NCBI GenBank assembly: GCA_050950205.1
Contig: JBMNHF010000004.1
Coordinates: 19,045-83,044 of the forward strand
DNA from: Oscillospiraceae bacterium
GTDB taxonomy: Bacteria > Bacillota > Clostridia > Oscillospirales > Ruminococcaceae
DNA length: 64,000 nucleotides
Direction: 5' to 3'
Positions 6,058 to 63,445 of the stretch are shown here, in pieces. Made by a program: the position numbers and the translations under genes. Numbering within the stretch: position 1 is the stretch's first letter; every line of letters starts with the position of its first letter. The notes beneath the pieces are model-generated. The model saw only the letters and a list, made by a program, of their open reading frames with translations, did no database searches and was not told the origin of the DNA.

Positions 6058-7443
6058 ATGGAATACACCATCCCGCGCGTTGTATTCGCCGGTACAAACA
6101 GCGGATGCGGCAAAACGACCGTCACCTGTTCCGTTTTGCAGGCGCTTGTAAATCGGAAGATGAAAGTCGGCGCATTCAAATGTGGACCGGATTACATTGA
6201 CCCTATGTTCCACAGCAGAGTGATTGGCGCCAAAAGCTCCAATTTGGATCTGTTCCTCTTTCAGGAAAACACACTCAAATATCTGCTTTCTAAAAACGGG
6301 GCGGGCTGCGAGGTCAATATCATTGAAGGCGTGATGGGCTTTTATGACGGCATGGGGATGACCACCGAGCGCGGTAGCACCTACGATGTGGCGCGGGTGA
6401 CGCAAAGCCCCGTCGTCCTAATCGTGGGAACGCAGGGTGCGGCACTGTCCGTGCTGGCGCAGATTCACGGATTTCTGACTTTCTGCCCGGACAGCGGGAT
6501 TTGCGGCGTGATTCTCAACGGATGTTCTGCTATGACGTATCAGCTTCTGGCGGAGGAAATCACAAAACGCTTTGGCGGGTGCGTTCGCCCCATGGGGTAT
6601 CTGCCGGTGCTGCCGGAAGCTTCCCTTGAAGGCCGGCATCTCGGGCTCGTTACGGCGGCGGAAGTCGAAAACCTGCGGGAGAAGCTGCGCATCTTAGCAG
6701 AGCAGGCTGAAGGGACGATTGACATAGATGGGCTCATAGCTCTGGCAAAGAGCGCTCCACCCATTGTTTGCGAGCCGGTCGCGCTGCCGCGGTTTACCGA
6801 CCCGGTGCGCATCGCGGTAGCGCGGGACAAGGCTTTTTGCTTTTACTATGAAGACAGCCTGGAGGCCCTCACAGAGATGGGCGCCGAGCTTGTGCCCTTT
6901 AGCCCGCTGCATGACGCCGCCCTTCCCCCCGATATCCATGGCCTGTATATCGGGGGAGGGTACCCTGAGCTGTATGCTGAGGCGCTGAGTAAAAATGCAG
7001 CCATGCGCGCATCCGTCAAAAGTGCGCTGGAGCAGAGGATTCCCTGCATAGCCGAGTGCGGCGGATTTATGTATCTCACGGAGTCCATTGGCGATGCTCC
7101 TATGGTCGGTTTTTTGCCGGGGCGGAGCTTTGACACGGCAAAACTTGTGCGCTTCGGCTACGTTTATCTCAAAGCGAAGGAGGATACGATGCTCTGCCGG
7201 GTCGGGGAAGGAATACGGGGGCATGAGTTTCACTACTGGGACAGCGAGCACCTCGGCAGCTCCTTCGCCGCATCGAAACCGTCCGGAGCAAGCTGGGACT
7301 GCGTGTTTGGTTCAGAGCAGCTTTACGCCGGATATCCGCATTTCCACTTTTATTCAAATCCTGCTTTTGCCGTAAAATTTTATGAAACCTGTTTAAGGGA
7401 GAAACATCGCCATGATTCACAACACCAAGCCCATGGACATTGA
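6058..7443 (+). CDS. cbiA: Cobyrinate a,c-diamide synthase
   Basis: GTNSGCGKTT, FKCGPDYIDP, EGVMGFYDG, GGGYPEL, ECGG, GHEFHY. Confidence 0.95.
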   Translation: MEYTIPRVVFAGTNSGCGKTTVTCSVLQALVNRKMKVGAFKCGPDYIDPMFHSRVIGAKSSNLDLFLFQENTLKYLLSKNGAGCEVNIIEGVMGFYDGMGMTTERGSTYDVARVTQSPVVLIVGTQGAALSVLAQIHGFLTFCPDSGICGVILNGCSAMTYQLLAEEITKRFGGCVRPMGYLPVLPEASLEGRHLGLVTAAEVENLREKLRILAEQAEGTIDIDGLIALAKSAPPIVCEPVALPRFTDPVRIAVARDKAFCFYYEDSLEALTEMGAELVPFSPLHDAALPPDIHGLYIGGGYPELYAEALSKNAAMRASVKSALEQRIPCIAECGGFMYLTESIGDAPMVGFLPGRSFDTAKLVRFGYVYLKAKEDTMLCRVGEGIRGHEFHYWDSEHLGSSFAASKPSGASWDCVFGSEQLYAGYPHFHFYSNPAFAVKFYETCLREKHRHDSQHQAHGH

Positions 7444-29361: not shown

Positions 29362-30135
29362 ATGGCATCACGCAAATCGGTGATAACGTTTGGTATGGTG
29401 GCCATTCCCATTGCCATGTCCACAGCCACCCGGGACAATGATATTCATTTTAATCAGCTGCACAAAGAGGATCACAGCCGCATTCGCTACAAAAAAACCT
29501 GTTCCCACTGCGGCGTGGAAATCAAGGCGGAAGACATTGTCAAGGGCTTTGAATACGACAATGACAAATATGTGGTAATCACAGACGAAGAAATTGAAAA
29601 AATCAAAACCGAAAAGGAAAAATCCATCCAGATTCTGCATTTTGCCCAACTCAACCAAATTTCCCCCGTCTATTACGACAAAACCTATCAGGCCGCCCCC
29701 CAAGCGGGAGGGGAAAAGGCCTTTGAGCTGCTGCGCGCCGCATTGATGGCGGAACAGAAAATCGCCATCGGCAAAACGGTGTTGGGCACCCGAGACACCT
29801 TAATGGCCATCATCCCCCGGGAGGACGGCATCCTCATTTCTACCATGTTCTACGCCGATGAAATTAAGGAGCTGCAAAAGCCGTATGGAAAGCCGGAGGT
29901 TTCCGAGCAGGAACTGAATATGGCAAAAATTTTGATCAATTCCATGGATACTCCCTTTGACCCCTCCCAGTATAAGGACGAGTATCAGGCCAAGCTCCGC
30001 GCCCTGATCGAAACCAAAATCTCCGGGCAGGAAGTGGTGGCTCCCGAGTCCGAAGGACCCAGCAAAGTCATCGACCTAATGGAAGCACTCAAGGCCAGCG
30101 TGGAAAAAGCGCAACAAGAAAAGGCACTGGCGTAA
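29362..30135 (+). CDS. ku: NHEJ DNA end-binding protein Ku
   Basis: ITFGMVAIPIA, RIRYKKTC, IVKGFEY, FDPSQYKDEY, VIDLMEALKAS. Confidence 0.97.
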   Translation: MASRKSVITFGMVAIPIAMSTATRDNDIHFNQLHKEDHSRIRYKKTCSHCGVEIKAEDIVKGFEYDNDKYVVITDEEIEKIKTEKEKSIQILHFAQLNQISPVYYDKTYQAAPQAGGEKAFELLRAALMAEQKIAIGKTVLGTRDTLMAIIPREDGILISTMFYADEIKELQKPYGKPEVSEQELNMAKILINSMDTPFDPSQYKDEYQAKLRALIETKISGQEVVAPESEGPSKVIDLMEALKASVEKAQQEKALA

Positions 30136-32585
30136 TGGCAGTTCGGCTGGAAGAGTATTACCAAAAGCGAAATTTTACAAAAACCCCCGAGCCGTCGGGG
30201 GAAGAAGAACCCAATCCCGAAGCAGAGCCCCAAGGGCTGCGGTTTGTGGTGCAACACCATATGGCGCGGCGAGAGCATTACGACCTTCGGCTGGAATGGA
30301 GGGGCGCACTGCTAAGCTGGGCGGTACCCAAAGGTCCGTCCTATCACACCCGGGACAAGCGCCTGGCCATTCAGGTGGAGGATCACCCTCTGGAGTACCG
30401 AAATTTTGAGGGCACCATCCCCAAGGGAGAGTATGGCGGCGGCACCGTCATGCTCTGGGACGAAGGCTATTGGGAGCCCCAAAACAATGTGGAGGAAGGG
30501 CTTCGCAGCGGCTCCCTCAAGCTGGTGCTAAAGGGGCGAAGGCTCAAGGGCAAATGGGCCCTGGTGCGGATGAAGGCAAAGGCGGGAGAATCGGCCGACA
30601 ACTGGCTTTTGCTCAAGGAAAAAGACCAATATGCCCGGGAGGATGACGGAATTTCGCAGTTTACCACCAGCATTCGCACCGGGCGCACCATGGAGGAAAT
30701 TGAAGAGGGGGCAGAAGAAAAATTCACCCGAAACCCTTTTCGGCAAACCGGCGTGCAGCTGGCCAAGCTGGTCAAAGACATCCCGCAAGGGGACGGCTGG
30801 CTCTATGAAGTAAAATACGACGGTTACCGGATGGTTGCCTACGTGGAAGGCAACGGTGTGCGGCTGATCTCCCGGGGGGGCAATGACTATACCGGGCACT
30901 TTCAACCGGTGGCGGATGCTCTGGTGGATTGGGCTGCCGGACGGGCCATGGTTCTGGACGGGGAAATGGTGGTGACCGACCCCCAAGGCAGAACGGATTT
31001 TCAGGCCCTGCAAAATTATCTGCGAAAGCCAAGGCCCCAACATCTTGCCTACATTGTCTTTGACCTTCTCGCTTTGGATGGCGAGGATTTGAGAAGCCAA
31101 CCCTTAACCCAGCGAAAAGAAACGCTGGAGGCTTTGATGCAGGGCGCCCCCAACTATCTTCACTACAGCCGGCACACCATCGGCAATGGGGAGGCAAGCT
31201 TTTGCGCGGCCTGTCAGCTGAATTTGGAAGGCATCATCGGCAAAAAAGCCGATTCCATTTATAGCGGAACCCGAAGCGGCGATTGGATTAAGCTCAAATG
31301 CGATAAACGGCAGGAATTTGTCATCGGGGGATATACCCGGCAAAAAGCCGACCGCATCATCAGTTCCCTTCTCCTTGGCATCTATCAGGACGGGGAGCTG
31401 ATTTATGCCGGCCGCGCCGGGACGGGATTGAGCCAACGGGACATGAAACAGCTGATGGAAAAATTCGAGGGCATCCAAAGGGCGCAATCACCTTTTTTGA
31501 CTGCTCCCAAGGCCAGAGCCAATGAAAGCATCACTTGGCTGGAGCCGCATCTGGTGGCGGAAGTCAAATTTGCCGAGTGGACGGAGGAACATTTGTTGCG
31601 ACAGGCAAGCTACCAAGGCTTGCGGGAGGATAAAAATCCGAAAGAGGTAAAAAAAGAAGGGGCAGATGTTCCGGCGCAGCCGGCATCATCTGCCCAAGAA
31701 CGGGAGAAGCCAATGGATACAAAGGGTGACAATATTCTGGTGGAAGGAATCAAAATCAGCAGCCCGGACAAGGTGATATTCAACCACCCCAAAATCACAA
31801 AAGCAGATGTAGCCCGCTACTACGCAAAGGTGGCAGAGCGGATGCTTCCCTATGTGAGCCATCGTATTTTGAGCATTGTGCGCTGCCCCAAGGGGGTATC
31901 CCAGTCCTGTTTTTACAAGAAGCATCCCGGCTCCAGCAGTCGGGAGGTTGTCACCATCCCCATCACCAACAGCGACGGAGAGACAGAAGATTATTTTTAT
32001 ATTGAAAGCCGGGCAGGGCTTATCTCCGAAGCCCAGATGGGCACCTTGGAATTTCACGTCTGGGGCAGCCGGGTGGAACATCTGGAGCAGCCGGATATGA
32101 TGGTATTTGACCTGGACCCGGATGAGGGAATGGCGCTGGATTTGGTTCGCCAAGGGGTAAGGGATCTCCAAAGTATTCTGGCGGAGCTTTCCCTGATTTC
32201 CTACCTCAAAACCAGCGGGGGCAAGGGATATCATGTGGTGGTGCCGTTGACACCATCGGCTTCTTGGGATGCTTTCAGTGATTTTGCCAAGGGGATTGCC
32301 CAAGTGATGGAGCAAAAATGGCCGGACCGCTACACCAGCAATATGCGAAAGAGCAAGCGCACCAACAAGATCTTTATCGACTGGGTGCGAAACGGCAGAG
32401 GGGCCACCAGCGTTGCCCCTTATTCCATTCGGGCAAGAGAAGGAGCCACGGTATCCATGCCGATTGGGTGGGATGAATTGGACACGGTTGAACCAGACGG
32501 CATTCATATGGAAGATGCACTGCTGAGAATCGGTGGGGCAGATCCCTGGGAAGGTTTTTTTACACACCAACAGCAGTTGAAATAA
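30135..32585 (+). CDS. ligD: DNA ligase D (phosphoesterase-ligase-polymerase)
   Basis: HYDLRLE/SWAVPKGP (PE), YEVKYDGYR and EGIIGK (ligase), FDLDPD and KTSGGKGYH (polymerase). Confidence 0.97.
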   Translation: MAVRLEEYYQKRNFTKTPEPSGEEEPNPEAEPQGLRFVVQHHMARREHYDLRLEWRGALLSWAVPKGPSYHTRDKRLAIQVEDHPLEYRNFEGTIPKGEYGGGTVMLWDEGYWEPQNNVEEGLRSGSLKLVLKGRRLKGKWALVRMKAKAGESADNWLLLKEKDQYAREDDGISQFTTSIRTGRTMEEIEEGAEEKFTRNPFRQTGVQLAKLVKDIPQGDGWLYEVKYDGYRMVAYVEGNGVRLISRGGNDYTGHFQPVADALVDWAAGRAMVLDGEMVVTDPQGRTDFQALQNYLRKPRPQHLAYIVFDLLALDGEDLRSQPLTQRKETLEALMQGAPNYLHYSRHTIGNGEASFCAACQLNLEGIIGKKADSIYSGTRSGDWIKLKCDKRQEFVIGGYTRQKADRIISSLLLGIYQDGELIYAGRAGTGLSQRDMKQLMEKFEGIQRAQSPFLTAPKARANESITWLEPHLVAEVKFAEWTEEHLLRQASYQGLREDKNPKEVKKEGADVPAQPASSAQEREKPMDTKGDNILVEGIKISSPDKVIFNHPKITKADVARYYAKVAERMLPYVSHRILSIVRCPKGVSQSCFYKKHPGSSSREVVTIPITNSDGETEDYFYIESRAGLISEAQMGTLEFHVWGSRVEHLEQPDMMVFDLDPDEGMALDLVRQGVRDLQSILAELSLISYLKTSGGKGYHVVVPLTPSASWDAFSDFAKGIAQVMEQKWPDRYTSNMRKSKRTNKIFIDWVRNGRGATSVAPYSIRAREGATVSMPIGWDELDTVEPDGIHMEDALLRIGGADPWEGFFTHQQQLK

Positions 32586-32612
32586 GGACATTGCTATCTA
32601 AGCAGCCATTAA

Positions 32613-32654
32613 AAAACAAAAGATCGCCGAAAAGCATCGGCGATCTTTTGTTTT
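32613..32654. terminator. Bidirectional terminator between ligD and tRNA-Leu
   Basis: AAAACAAAAGATCGCCGA / TCGGCGATCTTTTGTTTT. Confidence 0.85.
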
Positions 32655-32961
32655 GGTGCCGCTGACGGGACTCGAACCCGTACGGTGTTTACCACCGAGG
32701 GATTTTCTCCACCACACACGGTTACCCGTGCCGCAAACAAGTTTGCGTTGTAGCCCGGACTATGTCTTCACCCTGCCGATTTCCCGGTTTAGGTGGCTGC
32801 CGTATAGTCTCTACACCTTCCGGCGCTTTGCCGGCTTGGCTCGGCGTTGCCCACAATCATGCAGGTGGGTGTTCACCGAATTTGACAGCATCCACATGGC
32901 GGTTTCCCATCCATGCGCTCCTTCTGAAGTCCCTTGCGTCTGCCTGTTCCGCCACAGCGGC
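32654..32961 (-). tRNA. tRNA-Leu(UAA) interrupted by an intron (exons 32927-32961 and 32654-32706)
   Basis: Acceptor GCCGCTG/CAGCGGC-A-CCA; D-arm GCG/CGC; anticodon stem AGGGA/TCCCT; spliced loop CT-TAA-AA; long variable arm; GTTCGAGTC T-loop. Confidence 0.95.
32707..32926 (-). ncRNA. Group I self-splicing intron, 220 nt, no homing endonuclease
   Basis: Core elements AAATTCGGTGAA, AACGCCGAG, GTGTAGAGACTA, AAGACATAGTCC; P1 exon CUU with intron GAG (U.G at the splice site); P3 GCTGTC/GGCAGC; terminal G before the 3' exon. Confidence 0.93.
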
Positions 32962-32982
32962 ATTTTGCAATTTGGCTCTGTC

Positions 32983-33011
32983 ATTATACAATAAATTGCA
33001 ACCCGCGTCAA
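32983..33011 (-). promoter_or_regulatory. sigmaA promoter of tRNA-Leu
   Basis: TTGACG-17 bp-TATAAT on the minus strand, about 20 nt upstream of the tRNA 5' end. Confidence 0.8.
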
Positions 33012-33129
33012 TCAAAAGGTAACCTTGTCCATGCCGTAAGCTCATTGCTTCCATCAAAGGGACACATCACCATAAAAATTCGCTTGAGAGCAGAGGGCAC
33101 ATAAAGCGATGTGTCCCTTATAGCAGTAT

Positions 33130-42285: not shown

Positions 42286-42361
42286 GGACGATTAGCTCAG
42301 CTGGTAGAGCATTCGCTTGACGTGCGAAGGGTCAGCGGTTCGAGTCCGTTATCGTCCACCA
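42286..42361 (+). tRNA. tRNA-Val(GAC)
   Basis: Complete cloverleaf, TT-GAC-GT loop, CCA encoded; TTGCAA-17-TATAAT promoter at 42223-42251. Confidence 0.97.
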
Positions 42362-57470: not shown

Positions 57471-57609
57471 ATCTTGACAGTATGGAAAACAGGGACAAAC
57501 AGCTTTCCATGCAAATATTTTTTTGACCACTTTCTTCTACCCAGGATCTTGAGAAGAAAGTCAAGGCCATGCGGACAGCCGGGTCAAATGCCGATTGGCA
57601 ATTGGTTGC

Positions 57610-63167: not shown

Positions 63168-63335
63168 AGTTCGTAGGAAAATGACTGCGGTCTGCCGAAG
63201 GAGTAACACTCTCAGGCGCTCGAGGGTTCGGGCAAAGACTATGAATGGATGTGGCTCTGGAGAATCCCGTCAATCGGGTGCCGAAGGTGCAAGACGCGAT
63301 TAGCTCGCGTTAATCTCTCAGGCAAAAGGACAGAG
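63168..63335 (+). ncRNA. Tandem glycine riboswitch
   Basis: Two aptamers each with CCGAAGG...CTCTCAGG; CTCTGGAGA and CAGGCAAAAGGACAGAG in aptamer 2. Confidence 0.95.
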
Positions 63336-63445
63336 TTGGAAAAGGTATTGGGGCCTTTGGGCCCTTGTTCCTTTGTTTCTGGAGCCAAATCATGATTTGC
63401 ATGGTTTGGTTTTTTTATTTGTCGGAAGGAAGGGAATGTTGTTAC

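What the first reader, a model, noticed from the sequence alone, without database searches (positions are those of the whole stretch)
32654..32961. Group I self-splicing intron inside the anticodon of tRNA-Leu(UAA) in a Clostridia-type genome
Seen: a 220-nt insert between U34 and A35 with the catalytic core (P1 CUU/GAG, P2 with GAAA loop, P3 GCTGTC/GGCAGC, P4 TTCGGT/GCCGAG, P5 CCCAC/GTGGG, P6a CCGGC/GCCGG, P7 GACTA/TAGTC, P8, P9 with GTAA loop, terminal G) and a strong sigmaA promoter. Splicing yields a complete 88-nt Leu tRNA. Known: the same insertion site and P1 geometry characterise cyanobacterial and plastid tRNA-Leu(UAA) introns; I know far fewer examples in Firmicutes and cannot check novelty here. 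Inference: UUA decoding depends on ribozyme activity, a possible regulatory checkpoint. Standard annotation may miss this tRNA.
Basis: partly seen in the sequence, partly recalled or inferred. Interest (0 to 1): 0.75.

Follow-up and report, generated by a model that had tools for sequence, protein, structure and literature searches.

The report
Self-splicing intron inside a Clostridia tRNA-Leu gene
A leucine tRNA gene in an uncultured Clostridia-type bacterium is split in its anticodon by a small group I intron of a known kind, which is reported in other bacteria but not, in the reviews found here, in this phylum, and which standard annotation misses.

Summary
On the minus strand, 32961→32654, lies a tRNA-Leu(UAA) gene split between U34 and A35 by a 220-nt group I intron (32926→32707). 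It has its own promoter and terminator. Joining the exons gives a clean 88-nt tRNA-Leu(UAA). Rfam's group I model scores 50.0 bits, equal to its cut-off. All helices P1–P9 are supported by compensatory changes across 8 close and 93 wider relatives. The intron is more conserved (92–94%) than the adjacent protein gene (~80%) in syntenic Bacillota genomes, so it is maintained, not decaying.

It is a new member of a known kind, not a new kind. Interrupted tRNA-Leu(UAA) genes are published for cyanobacteria/plastids, Burkholderia and Beggiatoaceae. I found more on a Bradyrhizobium plasmid, on phage contigs and in at least 119 metagenome contigs. Reviews up to 2024 list only cyanobacteria and alpha/beta-proteobacteria, so Bacillota appear to be an unreported host phylum.

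The core sequence is closer to Azoarcus-like tRNA(CAU) introns than to the Anabaena tRNA-Leu intron. The insertion site, guide sequence and three-way P9 domain match Anabaena.

The "regulatory checkpoint" idea has no support. Splicing itself is inferred, not shown.

The parts
32983..33011 (-). Sigma-70/SigA-type promoter, TTGACG - 17 nt - TATAAT, about 22 nt upstream of the tRNA 5' end
   Evidence: 11/12 match to consensus. Both hexamers and the spacing are identical in L077, L030, L126, L015 and L014 while the spacer sequence differs.
32927..32961 (-). 5' exon of tRNA-Leu(UAA), 35 nt: acceptor 5' strand, D arm, anticodon stem 5' strand, C32 U33 U34
   Evidence: ARAGORN -i. The spliced sequence folds as tRNA-Leu(taa). 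97% identical to L015 and L126.
32707..32926 (-). Group I intron, 220 nt, no ORF. Contains P1 guide GAG, P2 (GAAA loop), P3-P8 core with the P3/P7 pseudoknot, a three-way P9 domain (P9, P9a with CUUG loop, P9b with GUAA loop) and a terminal G.
   Evidence: Rfam RF00028 50.0 bits, E=9.5e-12. Covariation counts on A1 and A2. P9 shape recovered in 90 of 94 single-sequence folds. 92-94% identical to syntenic relatives against 80-81% for the PGM gene DNA.
32918..32920 (-). Internal guide sequence GAG, which pairs with exon C32-U33-U34 to form P1 with a U.G wobble at the 5' splice site
   Evidence: P1 is paired in 98.9% of cells across 93 sequences. Introns spliced one base upstream (L009, L032) carry GGU instead, which pairs with A31-C32-U33.
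32654..32706 (-). 3' exon of tRNA-Leu(UAA), 53 nt: A35 A36 A37 A38, anticodon stem 3' strand, long variable arm, T arm, acceptor 3' strand, encoded CCA
   Evidence: 96% identical to L015 and L126.
32610..32653 (-). Intrinsic terminator hairpin followed by a U run. It is palindromic with A/T runs on both sides, so it can also terminate the convergent ligD gene.
   Evidence: Fold energy -32.5 kcal/mol, z = -7.83, 0 of 200 shuffles as stable. The simple terminator scan did not report it.

Best explanation
This is a functional, chromosomally inherited tRNA-Leu(UAA) gene interrupted by a small (220 nt), ORF-less group I intron of the IC3 type. Shown by the sequence and comparisons: the gene has its own promoter and terminator; the intron has all core helices, maintained by compensatory changes; joining the exons gives a canonical tRNA. 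Inferred mechanism: the promoter drives a short monocistronic precursor. The intron folds into the P3-P9 core. Its guide GAG pairs with C32-U33-U34 of the anticodon loop (P1, with a U.G wobble at the splice site), while the tRNA anticodon stem holds the two exons together in place of a P10 helix. Exogenous guanosine bound in P7 attacks after U34. The freed U34 3'-OH then attacks after the terminal G, which joins U34 to A35. RNase P trims the 5' leader; CCA is already encoded. The mature tRNA reads UUA (and UUG) codons, which occur in most genes of the window. The intron is kept by purifying selection because any defect would remove this tRNA. It most likely splices constitutively and has no regulatory role.
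For: Rfam group I model 50.0 bits, E=9.5e-12. Helices P1-P9b: 95.6% of cells paired against 32-44% for slid controls, and 28 of 67 pairs with double changes, in the 8 closest relatives. Across 93 unique relatives P3 is 100% paired and P4 98.7% paired. The three-way P9 shape appears in 90 of 94 independent folds. All 107 complete homologues have U before the 5' splice site and G as last intron base. The 3 whose splice site is shifted by one base have a compensating guide sequence. The spliced product is a perfect tRNA-Leu(taa). The promoter hexamers are invariant in six genomes and the terminator is strong. Same gene order (GlgP-amylase-TauE-TauE-PGM-tRNA-LigD-Ku) at 80-95% amino-acid identity in L015, L126 and L030. 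Intron 92-94% identical against 80-81% for PGM DNA. TTA occurs in 26 of 31 long ORFs. By established knowledge, small IC3 tRNA introns (Anabaena tRNA-Leu, Azoarcus tRNA-Ile) self-splice in vitro; PMC2729099 cites the Anabaena intron as self-splicing.
Against: No RNA or biochemical data: splicing is inferred. P1 has only 3 exon-guide pairs, and no P10 can be drawn. The Rfam score only equals the gathering cut-off, and the whole-window gathering scan did not report it. P7 invariance in the large alignment was forced by my search pattern, so it is not independent evidence. A helper protein for splicing in vivo cannot be excluded. Whether this is the only tRNA-Leu(UAA) gene in the genome is unknown.
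Confidence: 0.9

Rival explanations
1. The intron acts as a regulatory checkpoint: splicing efficiency is modulated, for example by GTP level, Mg2+ or temperature, so that supply of tRNA-Leu(UAA), and hence translation of UUA-containing genes, is tuned to physiology.
For: If this is the only tRNA-Leu(UAA) gene, all UUA decoding passes through the ribozyme. UUA is a minority codon (4.7% of Leu codons). Group I splicing needs guanosine and Mg2+ (established knowledge). A temperature-dependent regulatory role has been proposed for a group I intron in a Firmicutes flagellin gene (cited in PMC4853749).
Against: UUA occurs in 26 of 31 long ORFs, so there is no small regulon to control. The promoter is near-consensus and looks constitutive. 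No sensor domain or riboswitch-like extension exists: every part of the 220 nt is accounted for by standard group I helices. The same intron type sits in phage tRNA arrays and on plasmids, which fits a tolerated passenger better than a host regulator.
Confidence: 0.07
2. The gene is a decaying pseudogene, or the intron no longer splices; another tRNA covers UUA.
For: The Rfam score is only at threshold. Plastid tRNA-Leu introns from Derbesia and Bryopsis showed no self-splicing in vitro, although those RNAs were partially degraded (PMC2729099). The rest of the genome was not seen.
Against: The intron is more conserved than the neighbouring coding gene. Substitutions are compensatory. The exons give a flawless tRNA. 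Promoter and terminator are conserved.
Confidence: 0.03
3. ARAGORN's literal reading: a tRNA-Leu(CAA) with a 218-nt intron at the canonical 37/38 position, removed by a protein endonuclease as in archaea and eukaryotes.
For: This is what ARAGORN -i prints.
Against: That reading needs a C-A mismatch closing the anticodon stem and gives a 90-nt tRNA. The insert is a group I ribozyme. Boundaries at U34|A35 satisfy the U and terminal-G rules in 104 of 107 homologues and give a normal 7-nt loop. By established knowledge, bacteria lack the tRNA splicing endonuclease.
Confidence: 0.01

Closest known systems
Cyanobacterial/plastid tRNA-Leu(UAA) group I intron (Anabaena PCC 7120, 249 nt; rebuilt from the primers in PMC2729099 Table S1)
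   Same: Same host gene and same insertion point (U34|A35). Same guide sequence GAG pairing with CUU. Terminal G. GAAA-capped P2. The same three-way P9 domain: a closing helix, a small hairpin and a GNRA-capped hairpin. No ORF.
   Different: Only 56% identical overall and 57% in the P3-P7 core. P7 is GACUC/GAGUC in Anabaena and GACUA/UAGUC here. J8/7 and the P8 receptor loop differ (CCCUAAC/GAGGG against CCUAAAC/GCAGGG). The host phylum is different.
Azoarcus-type IC3 introns in tRNA(CAU) genes (represented here by phage-contig loci L002-L013; the link to Azoarcus tRNA-Ile is from my own knowledge of that sequence)
   Same: The core P3-P7 is 68-76% identical to the window's intron, with long shared blocks (GUCAAAUUCGG, CAACGCCGAGCCAAGC, GAAGGUGUAGAGACUA.ACGGCA, GGUGAAG.CAUAGUCC). 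Similar size, no ORF, located in the anticodon loop.
   Different: Different tRNA and a different insertion point within the loop. P9 is a single hairpin of 29 nt rather than a three-way domain. P8 carries the canonical CCUAAG/UAUGG receptor.
Interrupted tRNA-Leu(TAA) genes reported in 14 Burkholderia species (tRNADB-CE, PMC2686568) and in Beggiatoaceae (BOGUAY, Thiomargarita; PMC4853749)
   Same: Non-cyanobacterial bacteria whose tRNA-Leu(TAA) was 'missing' until an intron-containing gene was recognised. The metagenome set contains a GC-rich 247-248-nt group (for example L078, on the 430-kb Sargasso Sea contig AACY020561248.1, which I suspect is Burkholderia-like from memory only) with the same architecture.
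   Different: Those papers give no sequences in the text I could read, so identity with the family found here was not tested. The hosts are Proteobacteria, not Bacillota.
Unannotated tRNA-Leu(UAA) with a 204-nt intron on the Bradyrhizobium sp. ISRA443 conjugative plasmid NZ_CP094524.1
   Same: Same site, same GAG guide, same core and same three-way P9 domain. BLAST match covers 62% of the window query at 69.8% identity.
   Different: Alphaproteobacterial and plasmid-borne. J8/7 reads GGGAUAGUC rather than G.CAUAGUC.

Membership tests
Group I intron (Rfam RF00028) | Score at or above the curated gathering threshold of the covariance model | tested here: inconclusive
   50.0 bits against a threshold of 50, E=9.5e-12, in a 601-nt search. 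Not reported in the whole-window gathering scan. At threshold, not clearly above it.
Group I intron (Rfam RF00028) | Conserved core: P3-P8 with the P3/P7 pseudoknot and the P4-P6 domain, supported by covariation | tested here: met
   P3 100% paired with 4 of 6 pairs covarying; P4 98.7%; P6, P6a, P8 and P8a 82-99%. All helices 87.5-100% paired in close relatives, 28 of 67 pairs compensatory, slid controls 32-44%.
Group I intron (Rfam RF00028) | U.G wobble at the 5' splice site in P1 and G as the last intron nucleotide | tested here: met
   U34.G with guide GAG. All 107 homologues end in G. The guide sequence changes to GGU where the splice site is shifted.
Group I intron (Rfam RF00028) | Guanosine-dependent self-splicing | not testable with these tools
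   Needs an in vitro transcript with GTP and Mg2+, or RNA from a carrier strain.
Subgroup IC3 | Compact architecture: P2 with GNRA loop, no P5abc extension, no P7.1/P7.2, GNRA-capped P9 element; sequence kinship with accepted IC3 introns | tested here: met
   All 220 nt are accounted for by P1-P9b. Core 68-76% identical to Azoarcus-like tRNA(CAU) introns and 57% to Anabaena. That those comparators are IC3 is established knowledge, not tested here; Rfam has no subgroup models.
tRNA-Leu(UAA) anticodon-loop intron, as an insertion-site class | Insertion between U34 and A35 of tRNA-Leu(UAA), with guide GAG pairing with C32-U33-U34 | tested here: met
   Identical geometry in the rebuilt Anabaena gene.
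Cyanobacterial/plastid tRNA-Leu(UAA) intron lineage (common descent) | Closer in sequence to cyanobacterial tRNA-Leu introns than to IC3 introns of other tRNAs | tested here: not met
   Core identity is 57% to Anabaena against 68-76% to the tRNA(CAU) type. P7 is GACUA/UAGUC, not GACUC/GAGUC. Only one cyanobacterial sequence was available.
Cyanobacterial/plastid tRNA-Leu(UAA) intron lineage (common descent) | Shared peripheral architecture (three-way P9 domain) | tested here: met
   Shape [] in the window, Anabaena and 88 others. The tRNA(CAU) type has a single hairpin.
Mobile group I intron with homing endonuclease | An intron-encoded endonuclease ORF | tested here: not met
   The intron is 220 nt. 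All of it is taken up by ribozyme helices, so there is no room for an ORF.

The most novel reading that the evidence does not exclude
Anticodon-loop introns of tRNA-Leu(UAA) are not a cyanobacterial/plastid hallmark. They form a bacteria-wide family (Bacillota, alpha-, beta- and gamma-Proteobacteria, many soil and peat lineages) that also travels on phage tRNA arrays and conjugative plasmids. On this reading the 'oldest known intron' is either far older than the cyanobacterial ancestor, or it is repeatedly re-targeted to the same CUU|A site, with the whole interrupted tRNA gene as the mobile unit. The mosaic make-up (Azoarcus-like core, Anabaena-like P9 domain and site) would then record exchange between tRNA intron lineages.
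Probability: 0.35. Interest if true: 0.6.

Novelty: new member of a known kind. Interest (0 to 1): 0.42.

Why it matters
There are three practical points and one evolutionary point.

(1) Annotation. Genomes of this Bacillota clade will appear to lack tRNA-Leu(UAA) and may carry a bogus protein gene in its place. The same holds for a Bradyrhizobium plasmid and for phage tRNA arrays. A dedicated model would correct many genome annotations.

(2) Host range. [quoted passage not shown] A vertically inherited, selectively maintained copy in Clostridia adds a Gram-positive phylum.

(3) A handle for experiments. A cultured carrier (Oscillospiraceae bacterium PP1C4) makes the splicing claim directly testable.

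(4) Evolution. The tRNA-Leu(UAA) intron is the textbook example of an ancient intron. A large non-cyanobacterial family at the same site, with a core of a different sequence type, is relevant to the question of ancient origin versus repeated site-specific gain. It does not by itself settle that question.

Tried and rejected
- ARAGORN default and the whole-window Rfam gathering scan found nothing at the site. Only intron mode and a local E-value scan did.
- ARAGORN's placement of the intron at 37/38 with anticodon CAA was rejected (see rivals).
- The plus-strand ORFs 32653-32994 (113 aa) and 32762-33022 (86 aa) were rejected as artefacts, because they lie antisense to a conserved structured RNA.
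- The single genome-collection scan used a pattern that was too strict (38 fixed bases). It returned only 2 species, so it is a lower bound and not a prevalence estimate. It could not be repeated.
- A plastid/cyanobacterial-type pattern (GGCAATCCTGAGCCAA...GCAGAGACTC) found nothing in the viral contigs. The cyanobacterial comparator therefore had to be rebuilt from published primers, and only one such sequence was available.
- In the 93-sequence MAFFT alignment, P5, P2b and the P9 domain scored poorly (21-68% paired). This was a register problem in length-variable hairpins, resolved by per-sequence folding and by a close-relative alignment.
- I did not build a covariance model, because a 236-nt model was likely to exceed the calibration limit.
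- No formal phylogeny was attempted, since about 130 alignable core positions would not resolve deep branches.
- Six literature searches aimed at tRNA introns or their host range found no report of a tRNA-Leu intron in Clostridia or Bacillota. The Clostridium botulinum intron in PMC2729099 is in tmRNA, not in a tRNA. Subscription-only papers were not searched.
- The simple terminator scan missed the obvious hairpin. Folding showed it.

Full report
**What is in the sequence**

The feature lies on the minus strand. Read 5'→3' from 33011 it has five parts:
- a promoter, TTGACG-17 nt-TATAAT (33011-32983, 11/12 match to consensus);
- a 35-nt 5' exon, GCCGCTGTGGCGGAACAGGCAGACGCAAGGGACTT (32961-32927);
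- a 220-nt insert, CAGAAGGAGCG...GTGGTGGAG (32926-32707);
- a 53-nt 3' exon, AAAATCCCT...CAGCGGCACCA (32706-32654);
- a palindromic hairpin with a U run (32653-32610).

ARAGORN in default mode and the whole-window Rfam scan at gathering thresholds both miss the gene. ARAGORN with introns allowed finds a tRNA-Leu at exactly c[32654,32961]. However, it forces the intron to position 37/38, which gives a 90-nt 'tRNA-Leu(CAA)' with a mismatched loop closure. Applying the group I rules instead (U before the 5' splice site, G as the last intron base) gives a 220-nt intron between U34 and A35. The spliced product is then a flawless 88-nt class II tRNA-Leu(UAA) with a long variable arm and encoded CCA.

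**Is it a group I intron?**

A local Rfam scan hits RF00028 at 50.0 bits, equal to the gathering score, with E=9.5e-12. Because that is only at threshold, I looked for independent evidence from relatives.

- A conserved-core pattern found 12 viral contigs. Two of them (L008, L009) carry tRNA-Leu(UAA) genes with the same kind of intron.
- A strict genome scan found two Bacillota genomes.

Of 124 loci matching the pattern (including the window itself), 107 are complete. All 107 are tRNA-Leu(UAA), every intron ends in G, and 104 are spliced at U34|A35. Three loci (two distinct sequences, L009/L071 and L032) are spliced one base earlier, at U33|U34. Both of those sequences carry the guide GGU instead of GAG, exactly the change needed to keep P1 paired with a U.G wobble at the new site.

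- Across 93 unique sequences, P3 is 100% paired with compensatory changes in 4 of 6 pairs. P4 is 98.7% paired, and P6, P6a, P8 and P8a are 82-99% paired with many double changes. The covariation score is 0.234, against 0.120 for shuffles and at most 0.129 for slid controls.
- P7 is invariant in this set, but my search pattern required that, so it is not independent evidence.
- P5, P2b and P9 scored poorly there because MAFFT mis-registers length-variable hairpins.
- In an alignment of the 8 nearest relatives, every helix is 87.5-100% paired. Overall 95.6% of cells pair, against 32-44% when partners are slid, and 28 of 67 pairs show compensatory changes.
- Folding each P9 region on its own gives the same three-way shape in 90 of 94 sequences. 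The closing helices differ in sequence: GCUAC/GUGGU, ACCAC/GUGGU, CGCAC/GUGUG, UUCUC/GAGAA.

The ribozyme fold is therefore real and under selection.

**Is the gene in use?**

- The same gene order, GlgP-amylase-TauE-TauE-PGM-tRNA-LigD-Ku, occurs in L015 (MAG Bacillota bacterium JPMR_metabat.64_sub), L126 and L030 at 80-95% amino-acid identity. The interrupted gene is therefore chromosomal and vertically inherited.
- Between the window and L015 or L126, the PGM gene is 80-81% identical at the DNA level. The intron is 92-94% identical and the exons 96-97%.
- The -35 and -10 hexamers and their spacing are identical in six genomes, including the distant L014, while the spacer sequence drifts.
- The terminator hairpin folds at -32.5 kcal/mol, z = -7.8.
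- TTA makes up 4.7% of leucine codons and occurs in 26 of 31 long ORFs of the window, so a UUA-reading tRNA is needed.
- Only one other tRNA, tRNA-Val, lies in the 64 kb. Whether a second tRNA-Leu(UAA) exists elsewhere in the genome cannot be told.

**Host organism**

The window's exact PGM protein is on record only on a 4.6-kb JGI metagenome contig. The closest genome is a Bacillota MAG. The next carrier is Oscillospiraceae bacterium PP1C4, whose intron is 69-76% identical depending on the alignment method. Oscillospiraceae belong to class Clostridia. 'Clostridia-type' is a fair description.

**Mechanism (inferred)**

The guide GAG pairs with C32-U33-U34. No P10 helix can be drawn between the 3' exon (AAAAUC) and the bases 5' of the guide. 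As in the Anabaena pre-tRNA (my knowledge of Zaug et al. 1993), the anticodon stem is the likely element that holds the exons together. Guanosine-initiated two-step transesterification, then RNase P trimming of the roughly 15-nt leader, would yield the mature tRNA. No ORF fits in the intron, so it is not a homing element. Nothing beyond standard helices is present that could sense a signal.

**Comparison with what is known**

From the primers in Table S1 of PMC2729099 I rebuilt the Anabaena PCC 7120 pre-tRNA-Leu. The intron came out at 249 nt, the length I know for this intron (the paper's table lists 250).

- It shares with the window's intron the site, the guide GAG and the three-way P9 domain.
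- It is only 56% identical overall and 57% identical in the core, and its P7 is GACUC/GAGUC.
- The window's core is 68-76% identical to the Azoarcus-like introns of tRNA(CAU) genes on phage contigs. Those have a single 29-nt P9 hairpin and sit in a different tRNA.

The resemblance is therefore mosaic. This intron works like, and sits where, the classical tRNA-Leu intron does, but common descent with the cyanobacterial lineage is not shown.

**Literature**

- tRNADB-CE (2008) found intron-containing tRNA-Leu(TAA) genes in 14 Burkholderia species.
- Beggiatoaceae genomes have the same.
- tRNAscan-SE 2.0 states that it was not designed to detect such introns.
- Six searches aimed at tRNA introns or their host range found no open-access report for Clostridia or Bacillota.
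- I also found an unannotated copy on a conjugative Bradyrhizobium plasmid, and a copy in a 15-tRNA phage array.

**Verdict**

This is a new member of a known kind, in what appears to be an unreported host phylum. The regulatory-checkpoint inference is unsupported. The wider point is that this site is occupied in many non-cyanobacterial lineages and on mobile DNA. That is partly known, and it is the most interesting thread to follow.

**Limits**

- The genome scan was too strict to estimate prevalence.
- Only one cyanobacterial comparator was available.
- No phylogeny was made.
- Splicing is inferred from sequence alone.

Noticed in passing
L009:4779-5080 (IMGVR_UViG_3300031707_002920; same contig as metagenome locus L071): A phage-type contig with 15 tRNA genes in 10 kb. 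Its tRNA-Leu(UAA) is present only as an intron-interrupted copy, spliced after U33 rather than U34, with guide GGU instead of GAG. L032 shows the same one-base shift.
   Followed up: partly
L135:1391-1680 (Bradyrhizobium sp. ISRA443 plasmid NZ_CP094524.1, about 6503-6792): An unannotated tRNA-Leu(UAA) gene with a 204-nt group I intron at U34|A35 on a conjugative plasmid, between a hypothetical gene and trbI. Eight other Bradyrhizobium plasmids also match.
   Followed up: partly
L008:4651-4941 (IMGVR_UViG_3300032241_003073): A 98-kb viral contig with an interrupted tRNA-Leu(UAA) (204-nt intron) next to a Dda-like helicase gene.
   Followed up: partly
L002-L007 and L010-L013 (IMG/VR contigs): Azoarcus-like IC3 introns interrupt tRNA(CAU) genes on phage contigs. 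ARAGORN mislabels some of them Gln or Pro because it misplaces the intron.
   Followed up: partly
window 32653-32994 (+), 32762-33022 (+); L001:4458-4628: Spurious ORFs lie antisense to or over the tRNA and intron. The JGI pipeline called a 57-aa 'gene' there on the matching metagenome contig.
   Followed up: yes
window 32610-32653: A perfect palindromic hairpin with A/T runs on both sides sits between the convergent ligD gene and the tRNA. It is probably a bidirectional terminator. The simple terminator scan did not report it.
   Followed up: partly
window 29362-32585 (+): Ku (257 aa) and a full-length three-domain LigD (816 aa) form an NHEJ pair immediately downstream of the tRNA. The arrangement is conserved in L030 and L126.
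   Followed up: no
window 32767-32792 (P8) and 32722-32725 (L9b): The window's clade (7 sequences) has a GUAA loop on P9b where 80 others have GAAA. In five of those seven, including the window, the P8 internal loop (CCUAAA(C/U)/(G/A)CAGGG) is neither the canonical 11-nt GAAA receptor (CCUAAG/UAUGG, kept in L041 and L084) nor Anabaena's IC3 receptor (CCCUAAC/GAGGG).
   Followed up: partly
L023:7787-8080: A 294-nt member of the family carries an AT-rich insertion of about 85 nt in the P1 loop.
   Followed up: no
window 57524-57594 (+), 63247-63343 (+), 42286-42361 (+): Rfam hits to SpF59/ldcC sRNA (67 bits) and a glycine riboswitch (64.9 bits). tRNA-Val(GAC) is the only tRNA that default tools find in the window.
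   Followed up: no
L136:1001-1077 (Pseudomonas phage vB_PsyM_KIL1, KU130126.1 21261-21337): A weak match to the intron core lies just after a piece of a terminase large-subunit CDS that is annotated as joined from two pieces. It may be a group I intron in that gene.
   Followed up: no
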